IMG/VR virus record: IMGVR_UViG_2563366960_000002
DNA length: 64,000 bases
Direction: 5' to 3' (one strand)
Origin: a virus
Lineage: Duplodnaviria > Heunggongvirae > Uroviricota > Caudoviricetes
The notes under the pieces are model-generated. The model was not told where the DNA came from and did not search any database. It worked only from the letters and a program-made list of their open reading frames with translations. Of this stretch, positions 5,213 through 7,771 are shown one piece after another (positions within the stretch are counted from its first letter, which is position 1; each line of letters starts with the position of its first letter). The position numbers were made by a program, and so were the translations under genes.

Positions 5213-5914
5213 CTATTCTGATTCCTGCTCAAAAAACGAGCTAATGAGGGGAAGCCAATCCTCTGACACTTCGCGAGGTCGCGGTTTGCCGTGGAAAAAA
5301 ATTATTCGGCAGTCCTTTGGTAATGCCCCATTCCCCCTGGAGTAACGCGCGCTCGCATATTTTGAACCTGGTTCCACAACATCGGCCTTGTAACTTACAA
5401 ACCATCCTGGATACAGATCCTGAAATGCTGGTGTATCATCGCCCATAACCTTCCGTAAGAACCCCTGATCACCCCAGCACTCAGTAGTGACACAACGAGA
5501 AATCCAACCTTCCGGATCTTGCCAGAATGAACTCCAGATATGCGCTTTTACACTATTTGGTATCCACAGGGCACCGCTGCCACGATATTGTGGATGGTAA
5601 AAATCCCTAAGCATGGTGAAGCTGGTTGGTGGATCCTCAAGGATTGGGCGTATATCACCGGCAATAACCGTGTCCAAATCCAGATAGAACAGATCATCGG
5701 TTATATCCGGTCGGAACAACTCGATTTTCGCCCACCAGCCACGGCACTTTTGCCACTGGTTGATCAATGGGACAACTTTGACGCCAGGTACATGTAAACG
5801 CTTCAGGTCTGTCAGGCAAATAATTTCATAGCCTTTTGGCAGTTGATTAACCAGCCACTGCACATCGGAAGCGTTATAGTCACCACCAGAGCGAAGAACT
5901 AAAGCAATCTTCAT
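5213..5914 (-). CDS. GT-A-fold glycosyltransferase-like protein (DxD motif)
   Basis: 233-aa ORF; LDLDTVI (DxD) and C-terminal FFHGKPRP resemble the GT8-type H-x-G-x-x-KPW motif. Confidence 0.45.
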
Positions 5915-6603
5915 GCTGCACCATCACCTTTCACTTTCATCAATGTCAGGTTTCCGCAAAATACGGCACCAGTGTCGATATAATGCTGATTCCAGAATGT
6001 CTTCGGGCTTTTCACCGGAGTGTGACCAAAGATAAAACGATCTGCGCCCGAAATTTCGCCACCAATATCATCCATCGAATCACTGATACGCTCTCGCGCC
6101 CAGACAACGTTGAAAAGCGGCACCTCCTTACCGAATTGATATTCATTATCCGGATAGTCGGCATGGGCTATAACGATAGTTTCTTGCCCGGTGTTCAACT
6201 CAATGATATAGGGCAGACGCTTTACCAGCTCCACCAGCGCCCTAGCTAATATTTCCTGATCAGTGTCCAGCATGAAGAACCATTGTCCGCCATTCATTAG
6301 CCAGTTATTCACGTTGCCATCAGGACTTAACGCATCAATCATCAGCCGCTCATGGTTCCCCATCACTGCCCTGAACCAGGGCATCTGCAATAGTTCCAGA
6401 CATTCGACATTTTCAGTACCGCGATCGATAAGGTCGCCGACCGATATCAGTAAATCCTGCGCCGGGTCAAAATCCACACGATGGAGTTCGGACATCAGTC
6501 TGGTGTAGCAACCATGCAGATCACCAACAACCCAGACATTCCTGTATTTGGTACCGTCGATACGGTGATAAATTGTTGGTGCCATCATGTATTCTTCAGC
6601 CAT
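5911..6603 (-). CDS. ppp: serine/threonine protein phosphatase, calcineurin-like (P1 Ppp-like)
   Basis: 230-aa ORF; metallophosphatase motifs GDLHG, GDLIDRG, GNHE. Confidence 0.8.
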
Positions 6604-7211
6604 TCTTTAAGAGTCATCTGCGGAATACCTCCCATTTTCCCGCATGAAACAACGTCAATCTGTTCACGCGCAGACTGGAATAACAAAGGCAGGTGACTTA
6701 GATTTTTTGGCGTGCCGCCGGAATGAACGCGTGGTTCTTGCGTAGCGTCAACGCCCACCAGGGCTACATGTTTGAATCCGATATGGAAAGCCAGGTTCAG
6801 AGCACCATATGCACTATTGCCGCTGGCAATTTCATTCTCATCTTCGCAAAGGCCGAAATGTGCGGACCAGCGCCACGCCCACCACTCGGGAGAATTCGTA
6901 TTTTTTGGCTCCGTGCCGCGCTCAGCCACACGACGGAAGCACAAAACGCCGTCTCTGACCTCACGTTCTTTAACATCGGGTAGCGCCATGCAATAACAAA
7001 CACCACGGCGACGGCGGCCACGACCAACGCGCCGCATATTGTCTGGCGATGGATCAAGGGTGAAAAAATAAGAAGCGCGGTTAAGCCAGTCGATGGCCCC
7101 ATTGACCGCTATAATCGGCACTCCGCGCGGCGCAACAAAGTTTGCGGCGCTTGGGCCACTGCCGACGATAATAACGCGATCACTGCCTCTAAATTTATTC
7201 TTGGGAAACAT
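6585..7211 (-). CDS. Rossmann-like G-S-G-P-S protein, paralog A
   Basis: 208-aa ORF; VIIVGSGPS near N-terminus and [18 protein letters not shown] shared with next gene. Confidence 0.45.
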
Positions 7212-7771
7212 TGAATTGCACTGCTCCTACTTGCATTCAAAATATGTAAATCTGCGTGTTTTTTGCGGGTATCCAGGAACTGCTGTTGCCATTTTGAAAT
7301 AGACACCTGCGTTGGATTCCGTAGAGCTTGAGGGTGCGCACCATGCCAATGAAGGCCGTTTTGCAGAGAACAGTCATAGCCGACTAATACCACTACTTCA
7401 GCCCCTGATTCAGCCGCCAGACTGATAGCCTGCGCGCCGCTATTTACCCCTTCCGCCGGTCCACAATATCGCCTGTACTCCAACGAAAATGATTTCGCCG
7501 CCGCCAGGTTGGCTGTCACTTTGCGGAACCTCCCTCCCGGTATGGTGGAACCGTATTGCTTCCACCATGACAAATCACCGGCGTATAAGGCATAAATGTC
7601 ATCGAACATCTGCCAGGAATTGTTAACCGCGATGATTGAACAGCCAGTTTTTTCTATAGCAGCACAGTCCTCACGAGTGAGTGACGGACCGCTACCGACA
7701 CAAAAAACAGTCCTAGTCGCCCTGGGTGGTATGTTCATTCTCAGCTGCAAATTCAGCCTCCAGGCGAGCAT
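7109..7771 (-). CDS. Rossmann-like G-S-G-P-S protein, paralog B
   Basis: 220-aa ORF; VFCVGSGPS and LVGYD motifs; 3' end overlaps paralog A by 103 nt in another frame. Confidence 0.45.
   Translation of the reverse strand: MLAWRLNLQLRMNIPPRATRTVFCVGSGPSLTREDCAAIEKTGCSIIAVNNSWQMFDDIYALYAGDLSWWKQYGSTIPGGRFRKVTANLAAAKSFSLEYRRYCGPAEGVNSGAQAISLAAESGAEVVVLVGYDCSLQNGLHWHGAHPQALRNPTQVSISKWQQQFLDTRKKHADLHILNASRSSAIQCFPRINLEAVIALLSSAVAQAPQTLLRRAECRL

What the first reader, a model, noticed from the sequence alone, without database searches (positions are those of the whole stretch)
5213..7771. GT-A-like transferase, phosphatase and two overlapping G-S-G-P-S paralogs in one early operon
Seen: a DxD-motif GT-A-like protein, the Ser/Thr phosphatase and two paralogous Rossmann-like proteins are co-transcribed, with a HAD phosphatase further downstream; the paralogs overlap by 103 nt in different frames. 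Inference: a sugar or nucleotide modification pathway (possibly DNA hypermodification as anti-restriction) rather than unrelated genes; the overlap could also mark a frameshift.
Basis: inference. Interest (0 to 1): 0.45.

Follow-up and report, generated by a model that had tools for sequence, protein, structure and literature searches.

The report
Phage P1 pmgO-pmgP-pmgQ glycosylation cassette
This stretch is the known but uncharacterised pmgN-pmgO-pmgP-ppp-pmgQ operon of phage P1; three of its genes (two sialyltransferase-fold paralogs plus a glycogenin-like transferase) form a sugar-adding cassette carried by many unrelated phages, whereas the phosphatases are only neighbours and DNA hypermodification is very unlikely.

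Summary
The window is a P1-like phage-plasmid, 98.4% identical to P1. On the minus strand, 5213-7771 carries pmgO, pmgP, ppp and pmgQ. pmgO and pmgP both contain G-S-G-P-S and are distant paralogs (hhalign 98%). They overlap by 103 nt, identically in 80/80 independent P1-like contigs. pmgQ keeps the GT8 motifs.

Both paralog models match the Maf/MptE/Cst-I (DUF115) fold. pmgQ accompanies at least one paralog in 26 of 27 loci from four bacterial phyla. These loci are nearly always in phage late regions and often include sugar O-methyltransferases or extra glycosyltransferases. In-frame pmgO-pmgP fusions exist. ppp and pap occur only in P1-like loci, and pap lies behind its own promoter and a terminator.

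Published P1 single-gene deletions show no plaque defect and no change in anti-restriction, which argues against DNA hypermodification. The overlap is an old, conserved dual-coding arrangement. The P1 slippery heptamer is not conserved and has no downstream RNA structure.

Best reading: a lytic-phase glycan-building cassette, probably acting on a protein. Donor and acceptor remain unproven.

The parts
7912..7928 (+). C1 repressor operator Op83 (Oppp) upstream of the operon. It matches 13 of 17 positions of the operator consensus.
   Evidence: Annotated in P1 record AF234172 at locus L001 8699-8715, which maps to window 7912-7928. The sequence was read.
7713..7901 (-). pmgN, a small ORF and first gene of the operon. 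It overlaps the pmgO start by 59 nt. P1 annotates a shorter 51-aa version.
   Evidence: phrog_2350
7109..7771 (-). pmgO (220 aa), a DUF115/MptE-like, sialyltransferase-fold enzyme. The first ~13 and last ~20 residues are poorly conserved and have low pLDDT.
7682..7696 (-). G-S-G-P-S motif of PmgO (residues 26-30)
   Evidence: nearly invariant G28, P29 and S30 in the family alignment
7109..7211 (-). 103-nt dual-coding overlap. The PmgO C-terminal helix and variable tail are in frame 0. The PmgP N-terminus, including its G-S-G-P-S motif, is in frame -1.
7224..7228 (-). AGGAG Shine-Dalgarno-like sequence 12 nt upstream of the pmgP ATG, inside the conserved Ser-Arg codons of pmgO
   Evidence: equivalent AGGAGG in locus L090
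7190..7196 (-). A_AAT_TTA heptamer in the pmgO frame. It is a candidate -1 slippery site, is specific to P1 and is probably not functional.
6585..7211 (-). pmgP (208 aa), a second DUF115/MptE-like paralog and the best conserved of the pair
7149..7163 (-). G-S-G-P-S motif of PmgP (residues 17-21), inside the overlap
   Evidence: P20 is invariant
5911..6603 (-). ppp, a lambda-PP/NinI-like Ser/Thr metallophosphatase. It is embedded in the operon but is not part of the conserved module.
   Evidence: phage D6 has ppp alone
5213..5914 (-). pmgQ (233 aa), a GT8-like retaining GT-A glycosyltransferase
5672..5680 (-). DxD motif (D79-L80-D81) of PmgQ, invariant in 34 homologs

Best explanation
The region is the C1-repressed pmgN-pmgO-pmgP-ppp-pmgQ operon of a P1-like phage.

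Shown:
- PmgO and PmgP are distant paralogs with the DUF115 fold (Maf, GT42 sialyltransferase, MptE).
- PmgQ is a GT8-like retaining glycosyltransferase that keeps the DxD, DQG and H-G-x-P-x-P-W motifs.
- The three genes travel together as a mobile cassette in very different phages and prophages of LPS-bearing bacteria, and in a few chromosomal adhesin islands. They often come with sugar-type O-methyltransferases or further glycosyltransferases.
- pmgO and pmgP are sometimes fused into one polypeptide.

Inferred:
- The cassette builds a short glycan in the cytoplasm during lytic growth.
- The two DUF115 enzymes each add an ulosonic-acid-type sugar from a CMP-activated donor. In E. coli K-12 the only such donor is CMP-Kdo.
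- PmgQ adds an alpha-hexose from a UDP-sugar.
- The most likely acceptor is a protein: a virion protein in phages, and Ig-like-repeat adhesins in the chromosomal islands.

ppp and pap are unrelated neighbours. The 103-nt overlap is an old dual-coding arrangement with independent initiation of pmgP, not a frameshift.
For: Identity: 98.4% DNA identity to P1, with gene names from the P1 and P7 records.

Paralogy: hhalign 98%.

PmgQ: its profile matches GT8 structures (6mw5 E 3e-8, glycogenin E 1e-5, GlyE 5gvv) with the DxD, GDQG and HG..P.PW motifs aligned.

Co-occurrence: an HMM census of 27 loci finds PmgQ with at least one paralog in 26, and all three genes in 19. The hosts are Gamma-, Alpha- and Betaproteobacteria, Bacteroidota and Gemmatimonadota.

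Fusions: P0051 is an in-frame PmgO-PmgP fusion followed by PmgQ. Further tandem DUF115 fusions, a PmgO-TylF methyltransferase fusion and a PmgO-Big_1 fusion also exist. In phage XacN1, PmgQ is fused to a TylF-type methyltransferase.

Accessory genes: Methyltransf_23, FkbM, Methyltransf_24, Nucleotid_trans, GT2 and GT-B genes lie nearby.

Late-gene position: the module sits directly after the HK97-type capsid gene in L098, L106, L107, L108 and L113. It sits in the Q-antiterminator/lysis/terminase stretch in L003, L004, L006, L102, L112, L114 and L115.

Protein-target hint: the module is interleaved with inverse-autotransporter and Big_1 adhesin genes in five Enterobacteriaceae genomes, and lies near one in L112.

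Dispensability: the P1 deletions and knockdowns behave like an accessory decoration function.
Against: - No biochemical data exist for any member, and I found no paper on the module.
- Sequence-level links to GT42, WaaZ and Pfam MptE-like are all below threshold.
- The text of two recent P1 cryo-EM papers (capsid and tail-baseplate) contains no mention of glycans. The P1 virion proteome paper reports none either.
- The acceptor would have to be recognised in phages with unrelated capsids.
- A position next to capsid or lysis genes is also a common site for unrelated cargo genes.
- The restriction to LPS-bearing hosts rests only on the minority of homologs that carry organism names.
Confidence: 0.42

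Rival explanations
1. LPS or envelope remodelling. The cassette acts on the LPS inner or outer core, using WaaZ-like Kdo transferases plus a GT8 enzyme related to the core glucosyl/galactosyltransferases WaaO, WaaJ and WaaR. The change would alter or mask the phage receptor (for P1, the core glucose). That would give superinfection exclusion or stop progeny adsorbing to debris.
For: - The precomputed Pfam annotation of the fusion protein lists WaaZ_KDO_III (faint). NCBIfam TIGR04437 WaaZ gives E 3e-4 on P0051 and 0.11 on PmgP.
- GT8 includes the LPS-core transferases (established knowledge).
- All named hosts are LPS-bearing.
- The Kdo-lipid A region would be a conserved acceptor across phyla.
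- P1 adsorbs to LPS core glucose (established knowledge).
Against: - The WaaZ matches cover only the N-terminal G-x-G-P-S region and score far below the cut-off (11.8-20.3 bits against 200). hhalign to E. coli WaaZ gives 13-15% probability.
- The module sits in late, lytic operons (after the capsid gene, or in the Q/lysis/terminase stretch). In P1 it is repressed by C1 in lysogens. That is the wrong timing for lysogenic conversion and late for replacing surface LPS.
- The adhesin-island contexts and the Ig-domain fusion point to proteins.
Confidence: 0.2
2. Diphosphokinase chemistry. PmgO and/or PmgP are MptE- or thiamine-pyrophosphokinase-like enzymes that pyrophosphorylate a hydroxyl group on a small molecule, sugar or nucleotide. 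PmgQ and the methyltransferases would act on the product.
For: - The only Pfam hit is MptE-like.
- The proteins are single-domain and about 200 aa, like MptE.
Against: - The best structural match for both is the Maf glycosyltransferase.
- The persistent partners are glycosyltransferases and sugar-type O-methyltransferases. None of 27 loci contains pterin, thiamine or nucleotide-biosynthesis genes.
Confidence: 0.12
3. One reading: a DNA hypermodification pathway that includes the phosphatases and serves as anti-restriction.
For: - Glycosyltransferases and phosphatases do occur in phage DNA-hypermodification clusters (established knowledge).
- In a Sinomicrobium phage contig and in jumbo phage XacN1 the module lies next to ribonucleotide reductase genes.
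Against: - P1 deletions of pmgO, pmgP, pmgQ, ppp and pap were made. The paper reports no plaquing defect and no change in anti-restriction for the non-essential mutants.
- ppp and pap are absent from every non-P1 locus.
- Most loci place the module beside capsid or lysis genes in small temperate phages, with no base-modifying enzymes in the flanks examined.
- P1 DNA is classically restriction-sensitive and is protected by Dar proteins and methylation (established knowledge).
Confidence: 0.03
4. The overlap marks a programmed -1 ribosomal frameshift at A_AAT_TTA (7190-7196). This would yield a PmgO-PmgP fusion protein in addition to, or instead of, separate PmgP. This rival is compatible with the main explanation.
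For: - pmgP is in the -1 frame of pmgO in all five loci examined.
- A canonical X_XXY_YYZ heptamer lies in the correct frame and is present in 80/80 P1-like contigs.
- Natural in-frame fusions exist.
Against: - The heptamer is absent from the homologous overlaps of L006 and L091. L090 and L098 have only C_CCT_TTG, at a different codon.
- I estimate that such a heptamer would arise by chance in a 34-codon overlap about 5% of the time (own calculation, not a tool result).
- The 80 nt downstream fold no better than shuffles (z 0.35).
- pmgP has a conserved start codon exactly 13 codons before its motif in all five loci, preceded by a Shine-Dalgarno-like sequence in P1, L090 and L091.
- O-only and P-only loci show that each protein can work without the other.
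Confidence: 0.08

Closest known systems
Maf (motility accessory factor) flagellin glycosyltransferases, DUF115 / Pfam PF01973 (e.g. Magnetospirillum Maf, PDB 5mu5)
   Different: Maf proteins are about 630 aa, with flanking domains thought to bind flagellin, whereas PmgO and PmgP are bare ~200-aa cores. Sequence identity is 15-17%. The Pfam score is below the gathering threshold (23.4 and 20.9 bits against 34.6). There are no flagellin genes or CMP-pseudaminic/legionaminic acid synthesis genes nearby. The enzymes occur as a paralog pair with a GT8 partner.
GT42 sialyltransferases Cst-I / Cst-II of Campylobacter jejuni (PDB 2p56, 1ro7)
   Different: There is no significant sequence relationship (hhalign probability 4-7%), and equivalence of the catalytic His188 is not established. 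E. coli K-12, the P1 host, makes no CMP-sialic acid (established knowledge), so the database label is almost certainly wrong about the donor.
MptE, archaeal 6-hydroxymethyl-7,8-dihydropterin diphosphokinase (PDB 8sd5)
   Different: It is a kinase rather than a glycosyltransferase. There is no pterin or folate gene context, and the partners here are glycosyltransferases and methyltransferases.
GT8 retaining glycosyltransferases (glycogenin; Skp1 alpha-galactosyltransferase, PDB 6mw5; GlyE, 5gvv; LPS-core WaaO/WaaJ/WaaR)
   Same: The PmgQ family profile matches them (E 3e-8 to 1e-5) with the DxD, GDQG and H-G..P.PW motifs aligned.
   Different: No Pfam Glyco_transf_8 hit at E<=1. PmgQ is shorter (about 200-235 aa). 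Its acceptor is unknown.
Mycobacteriophage virion glycosylation cassettes (glycosyltransferases beside the capsid gene that decorate capsid and tail-tube proteins; cited from my own knowledge of Freeman et al. 2023, a paper I did not read here)
   Same: A dispensable, late-expressed glycosyltransferase (plus or minus methyltransferase) cluster placed next to the major capsid gene, as in L098, L106, L107, L108 and L113.
   Different: Different enzyme families and Gram-positive-type hosts. Virion glycosylation has been shown there and not here.
WaaZ (KdoIII transferase of the E. coli/Salmonella LPS core)
   Same: Weak N-terminal motif similarity (TIGR04437, and PF27901 'faint'). The Kdo donor logic would fit hosts that make CMP-Kdo.
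   Different: Scores are far below the cut-offs, and hhalign probability is 13-15%.

Membership tests
DUF115 / MptE-like (Pfam PF01973) | Score at or above the Pfam gathering threshold (34.6 bits) | tested here: not met
   PmgO 23.4 bits and PmgP 20.9 bits, matching only the C-terminal motif. Some homologs carry a precomputed PF01973 hit.
DUF115 / MptE-like (Pfam PF01973) | Shared three-dimensional fold with solved members (Maf, MptE) | tested here: met
Maf flagellin glycosyltransferases | Multi-domain architecture with flanking domains for flagellin recognition, and a flagellar or nonulosonic-acid gene context | tested here: not met
   The proteins are 208-220 aa against 632 aa for 5mu5. No flagellar or CMP-nonulosonate genes appear in 27 loci.
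GT42 sialyltransferase (Cst-I/II) | Significant sequence or profile similarity, including the catalytic His | tested here: not met
WaaZ KdoIII transferase (TIGR04437 / PF27901) | Score at or above the curated cut-off (200 bits) | tested here: not met
   11.8 bits for PmgP and 20.3 bits for fusion P0051. hhalign to E. coli K-12 WaaZ gives 13-15% probability.
GT8 retaining glycosyltransferases (PmgQ) | DxD metal/nucleotide-sugar motif | tested here: met
   D79-L80-D81 is invariant in 34 homologs. It translates from 5672-5680 and aligns to the glycogenin DxD.
GT8 retaining glycosyltransferases (PmgQ) | Profile-level homology to solved GT8 members across the catalytic domain, including the DQG and H..G..KPW motifs | tested here: met
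   E 3.2e-8 to 6mw5 over profile positions 31-196, and 1.2e-5 to glycogenin over 71-199.
GT8 retaining glycosyltransferases (PmgQ) | Pfam Glyco_transf_8 match | tested here: not met
   No Pfam family at E<=1 for the single sequence.
GT8 retaining glycosyltransferases (PmgQ) | Retaining transfer from a UDP-hexose | not testable with these tools
   This needs an enzyme assay.
Programmed -1 ribosomal frameshift site | X_XXY_YYZ slippery heptamer in the upstream frame, with the downstream ORF in the -1 frame | tested here: met
   A_AAT_TTA at 7190-7196, with pmgP in the -1 frame.
Programmed -1 ribosomal frameshift site | Conservation of the slippery site in homologous overlaps | tested here: not met
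   Absent in L006 and L091. L090 and L098 have a different heptamer at a different codon.
Programmed -1 ribosomal frameshift site | Stimulatory RNA structure downstream | tested here: not met
   MFE -25.7 kcal/mol against a shuffle mean of -26.7; z 0.35.
Phage DNA hypermodification / anti-restriction cluster | Loss of the genes changes restriction sensitivity | tested here: not met
   From the literature, not computed here. The P1 single-gene deletion set includes pmgO, pmgP, pmgQ, ppp and pap. The paper reports no change in anti-restriction for the non-essential mutants (PMC9024508).
Phage DNA hypermodification / anti-restriction cluster | Non-canonical nucleoside in virion DNA | not testable with these tools
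   This needs LC-MS of nucleosides.
Known anti-phage defence systems (PADLOC) | Match to a defence-system protein model | tested here: not met
   No hits for PmgO, PmgP, PmgQ, Ppp or Pap.

The most novel reading that the evidence does not exclude
Phages of Gram-negative bacteria, P1 included, carry a portable late-gene cassette that decorates their own virion proteins (or other surface-exposed Ig-like or beta-rich proteins). The glycan would be built from host CMP-Kdo and a UDP-hexose by two minimal sialyltransferase-fold enzymes and a miniature GT8. This would be the first virion glycosylation system in Gram-negative phages and a new protein-Kdo linkage. Possible roles are shielding capsids from antibodies or from capsid-sensing immune systems.
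Probability: 0.2. Interest if true: 0.75.

Novelty: new variant of a known kind. Interest (0 to 1): 0.45.

Why it matters
P1 is one of the most used phages in genetics, yet these four genes have carried the placeholder 'putative morphogenetic function' since 2004. Database labels such as 'alpha-2,3-sialyltransferase' are now spreading without evidence.

This analysis shows three things:
- pmgO, pmgP and pmgQ form a coherent glycosylation cassette.
- The cassette is shared by lambdoid, HK97-like, P22-like and jumbo phages across several phyla.
- The family is large: the PmgO profile finds 6,765 cluster representatives.

That turns an annotation gap into a directly testable question, because the P1 deletion mutants already exist. 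If the acceptor is a virion protein, phage glycosylation would extend beyond actinobacteriophages. If it is LPS, it would be a new kind of phage-driven receptor editing.

The analysis also corrects the idea that the neighbouring phosphatases belong to the pathway, and it makes a DNA-hypermodification role very unlikely. The conserved 40-103-nt dual-coding overlap explains why the pmgP homolog is left unannotated in at least one deposited genome.

Tried and rejected
1. Single-sequence and profile searches of PmgO and PmgP against PDB sequences found nothing meaningful. Only fold comparison worked.
2. hhalign of both family profiles against E. coli WaaZ and against Cst-II gave low probabilities (4-15%). 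I therefore do not file the proteins under GT73 or GT42.
3. The viral-contig scan with the PmgP alignment returned only P1 copies in its top 80. It was useful for checking that the overlap is real but not for diversity. The genome-contig scan supplied the diversity.
4. The afdb50 fold library was not available. The BFVD search returned only uncharacterised phage DUF115 proteins.
5. Literature searches for pmgO/P/Q, DUF115 plus phage, MptE-like plus prophage, sialyltransferase plus prophage, and virion glycosylation found no functional study of the module. The 2004 P1 genome paper is not held.
6. Searching two P1 cryo-EM papers for any mention of glycans found none.
7. PADLOC gave no hits.
8. 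I considered the programmed-frameshift idea because of the in-frame heptamer and the natural fusions. I down-weighted it after the conservation and RNA-folding tests.
9. I looked for a shared Ser/Thr-rich extension at the C-termini of the capsid proteins encoded next to the module. They end in short G/S/T-containing tails, which does not discriminate.
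Full report
**What the region is.** The 2,559 bases are 98.4-98.5% identical to phage P1, P7, RCS47, SJ46 and other P1-like phage-plasmids. On the minus strand they hold the P1 genes pmgO (window 7109-7771, 220 aa), pmgP (6585-7211, 208 aa), ppp (5911-6603, 230 aa) and pmgQ (5213-5914, 233 aa). pmgN (7713-7901) lies upstream. pmgR, pmgS and pap (3112-3576) lie downstream. P7 calls the same genes hdmA-D, 'head morphogenesis', with no evidence given in the record. RefSeq re-annotation labels pmgQ 'glycosyltransferase' and pmgO 'alpha-2,3-sialyltransferase'. Those labels come from PHROG families 1962 and 4603.

**Checking the observation.**
- G-S-G-P-S translates from 7682-7696 (PmgO) and from 7149-7163 (PmgP). 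D-L-D translates from 5672-5680 (PmgQ).
- pmgP starts at ATG 7211 and pmgO stops at 7109, so the overlap is 103 nt, with pmgP in the -1 frame.
- All 80 independent IMG/VR P1-like contigs keep the 208-aa pmgP ORF and the same 103-nt overlap, so this is not an assembly artefact.
- Pairwise similarity of the two proteins is marginal (E 0.003 over 36 residues). Profiles built from 23 PmgO and 28 PmgP homologs align over 162 columns with 98% probability (E 1.6e-13). They are true but old paralogs.
- Ppp is a calcineurin-like metallophosphatase (Pfam E 8e-16). Pap carries the HAD phosphatase domain of polynucleotide kinase (E 7e-9).

**Transcription.** The four genes and pmgN overlap or abut (59, 103, 19 and 4 nt). 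The P1 record places a C1 operator (Op83, window 7912-7928) and a sigma-70 promoter upstream, and a late promoter further upstream before pmgL. 'Early, C1-controlled operon' is therefore consistent with the P1 annotation, although late read-through is possible. pap is not in this unit. Between pmgQ and pap lie two C1 operators with promoter PpmgR (5146-5162 and 5195-5211), then pmgR and pmgS, then a strong terminator-like hairpin at 3601-3629.

**What the proteins are.**
- PmgQ has no Pfam hit. A profile of 34 homologs matches solved GT8 enzymes: Skp1 alpha-galactosyltransferase 6mw5 (E 3e-8), glycogenin (E 1e-5) and the adhesin glycosyltransferase GlyE 5gvv. The invariant DxD, GDQG and H-G-x-P-x-P-W motifs are aligned.
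- PmgO and PmgP hit only the last ~30 residues of Pfam MptE-like, below threshold. They hit nothing in PDB by sequence.
However, this fold houses both CMP-sugar transferases and diphosphokinases.
- Profile comparisons with E. coli WaaZ and with Cst-II (whose sequence I verified against 1ro7) are not significant. NCBIfam WaaZ scores are far below the cut-off.

**Which genes belong together.** I collected 27 loci with usable flanks from species-representative genomes, metagenome assemblies and isolated phages. I scanned them with HMMs of the three families.
- PmgQ accompanies at least one of the paralogs in 26 loci. All three genes are present in 19, PmgP+PmgQ in 4, PmgO+PmgQ in 3, and PmgO alone in 1.
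- Hosts span Enterobacterales, Pseudomonas, Xanthomonas, Stenotrophomonas, Zhongshania, Onishia, Alloalcanivorax, Ochrobactrum, Martelella, Brevundimonas, Commensalibacter, a Methylophilaceae member, Sinomicrobium (Bacteroidota) and a Longimicrobiales member (Gemmatimonadota).
- One phage contig encodes PmgO and PmgP as a single in-frame 376-aa protein followed by PmgQ (P0051). The exhaustive search, which found 6,765 family representatives, turned up further tandem fusions, a PmgO-TylF methyltransferase fusion and a PmgO-Big_1/Big_13 fusion.
- Recurrent extra neighbours are SAM methyltransferases of the kinds that methylate sugars (Methyltransf_23, FkbM, Methyltransf_24, TylF). Further glycosyltransferases (Nucleotid_trans, GT2, GT-B) also recur.
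- By contrast, tblastn finds ppp, pap, pmgM, pmgN, pmgR and pmgS only in P1-like loci. Phage D6 has ppp but not the module.
- The functional unit is therefore pmgO-pmgP-pmgQ. The phosphatases are bystanders.

**Where the module sits.**
- In six HK97-like prophages it lies in the head-gene cluster. In five it follows the major capsid gene directly and precedes the head-tail connector genes (L098, L106, L107, L108, L113), and in L100 it immediately precedes a connector-like gene.
- In seven lambdoid or other phages it lies in the late operon, between the Q antiterminator, the lysis cassette and the terminase (L003, L004, L006, L102, L112, L114, L115).
- In five related Enterobacteriaceae genomes the three genes are interleaved with inverse-autotransporter and Big_1-repeat adhesin genes, with no phage genes nearby (L092-L096). 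L112 also has such an adhesin close by.
- Lytic or late expression, dispensability, a position beside the capsid gene and association with surface proteins all resemble known phage virion-glycosylation cassettes. They fit lysogenic conversion of LPS, or DNA modification, less well.

**DNA hypermodification.** Single in-frame deletions of pmgN, pmgO, pmgP, pmgQ, pmgS, ppp and pap have been made in P1. The paper states that the 24 non-essential mutants had no plaquing defect and no change in anti-restriction activity (PMC9024508). CRISPRi knockdown also scores pmgO, pmgP, ppp and pmgQ as non-essential (PMC10695390). Together with the genomic contexts above, this makes the anti-restriction hypermodification reading very unlikely. 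Nucleoside mass spectrometry would be needed to close the question.

**The overlap.** In P1, the Citrobacter rodentium prophage (phiNP), a Pantoea P1-like plasmid, Chimaeribacter and Zhongshania, pmgP starts exactly 13 codons before its I-I-V-x-S-G-P-S motif and lies in the -1 frame of pmgO.
- In the four enterobacterial loci the ATG is built from the conserved Cys codon of PmgO (xxA TGy). P1, L090 and L091 also have a Shine-Dalgarno-like sequence inside the conserved Ser-Arg codons.
- Overlap length varies (103, 94, 49, 40 and 43 nt) only because the unconserved, low-pLDDT PmgO tail varies.
- The conserved part of each protein is therefore encoded opposite a tolerant part of the other.
- P1 does have a canonical A_AAT_TTA heptamer in the right frame (7190-7196), retained in 80/80 P1-like contigs. 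It is missing from the homologous overlaps, and the 80 nt downstream fold no better than shuffles (z 0.35). I rate a programmed frameshift at under 10%.

**Most likely mechanism.**
- Shown: three enzymes with glycosyltransferase-type folds form a conserved, mobile cassette linked by fusions, and the cassette is expressed with lytic genes.
- Inferred: PmgQ transfers an alpha-hexose from a UDP-sugar. PmgO and PmgP each transfer an ulosonic acid from a CMP donor.
- The donor is probably CMP-Kdo. None of the loci encodes CMP-sugar synthesis, E. coli K-12 makes no other CMP-ulosonate, and every named host is an LPS producer.
- The acceptor is most probably a protein (a virion protein, or an Ig-like adhesin in the chromosomal islands).
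- Rivals are LPS-core editing (0.2), diphosphokinase chemistry (0.12), frameshift fusion (0.08, compatible with the main model) and DNA hypermodification (0.03).
- Nothing here is biochemical evidence. The text of the two P1 cryo-EM papers searched contains no mention of glycans.

**Novelty and verdict.** The genes themselves have been known since the P1 genome was annotated, so the bare observation is not new. New here are the definition of the pmgO-pmgP-pmgQ module and the exclusion of the phosphatases. Also new are its wide distribution in late regions of unrelated phages, the recurrent fusions and the conserved dual-coding overlap. I found no publication on any of this. I file it as a new variant of a known kind (a phage-borne glycosylation cassette) with moderate interest (0.45). 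The interest would rise substantially if a Kdo-containing virion or protein glycan were demonstrated.

Noticed in passing
window 7935-8513 (-): pmgM, just upstream of the operon, carries a VRR-NUC nuclease domain (Pfam E 3e-4, slightly below the gathering score). It is still labelled only 'putative morphogenetic function' in P1.
   Followed up: no
window 3649-4911 (-): PmgS (420 aa) is a long coiled-coil protein with weak matches to LmuB/SMC-like PADLOC models (E 1e-4) and to several coiled-coil Pfam families. P7 annotates it 'sheath contraction' and PHROGs 'head morphogenesis'. The labels disagree with one another.
   Followed up: no
window 3601-3629 (-): A strong terminator-like hairpin (11-bp stem, 6 GC pairs, T-run) lies directly after pmgS. 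It separates pap from the upstream genes.
   Followed up: partly
window 7713-7771 (-): pmgN and pmgO overlap by 59 nt if pmgO starts at ATG 7771. Homologs of PmgO start about 12-20 residues later, and residues 1-13 have pLDDT below 50. The internal ATG at 7738 (Met12) may therefore be the real start, giving a 26-nt overlap.
   Followed up: partly
window, whole (e.g. 3055-3071, 5146-5162, 5195-5211, 8819-8835, 19486-19513, 23019-23035, 39488-39504, 41171-41187): There are nine matches (up to 3 mismatches) to the 17-bp C1 operator consensus, against 0.46 expected by chance. This maps the C1 regulon across the window. The annotated Op83 before pmgN has 4 mismatches and was missed by this scan.
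   Followed up: partly
L110 (Escherichia phage EP_H11, OP688485) 7001-7609: The PmgP homolog is not annotated in the deposited record, apparently because it overlaps the upstream PmgO-like gene (6501-7037). A GT-B glycosyltransferase (7602-8570) sits between it and the PmgQ homolog (8561-9190).
   Followed up: partly
L092-L096 (Enterobacteriaceae UBA7338 and Pseudescherichia spp.), e.g. L092 1357-10873: The three module genes are split into separate transcription units. They are interleaved with a 1,178-aa inverse autotransporter (IAT_beta plus 7 Big_1 repeats), a 999-aa Big_1/RCC1-repeat protein and a 494-aa Big_1 protein. No phage genes lie within 12 kb. This is a possible adhesin-glycosylation island.
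   Followed up: partly
L112 2029-3699 (protein P0311): A PmgO-like domain is fused to Big_1/Big_13 Ig-like domains. The gene lies between a holin and a lysozyme gene, next to a GT2 gene and a PmgQ homolog, with an inverse-autotransporter adhesin 2.5 kb away and IS elements around. I could not tell whether the fusion is functional or a rearrangement product.
   Followed up: partly
L111 (Xanthomonas jumbo phage XacN1) 5324-7946: The jumbo phages XacN1, Xoo-sp13 and Stenotrophomonas phages CM1 and RAS14 carry distant PmgP homologs. In XacN1, the only one inspected, the PmgQ-like domain is fused to a TylF-type O-methyltransferase and the genes lie next to ribonucleotide reductase genes.
   Followed up: partly
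phage D6 (MF356679) 80044-80671: The P1-like phage D6 matches only the ppp part of the query (89% identity) and lacks pmgO, pmgP and pmgQ at this position. The module is therefore an exchangeable insert within the P1 family.
   Followed up: no
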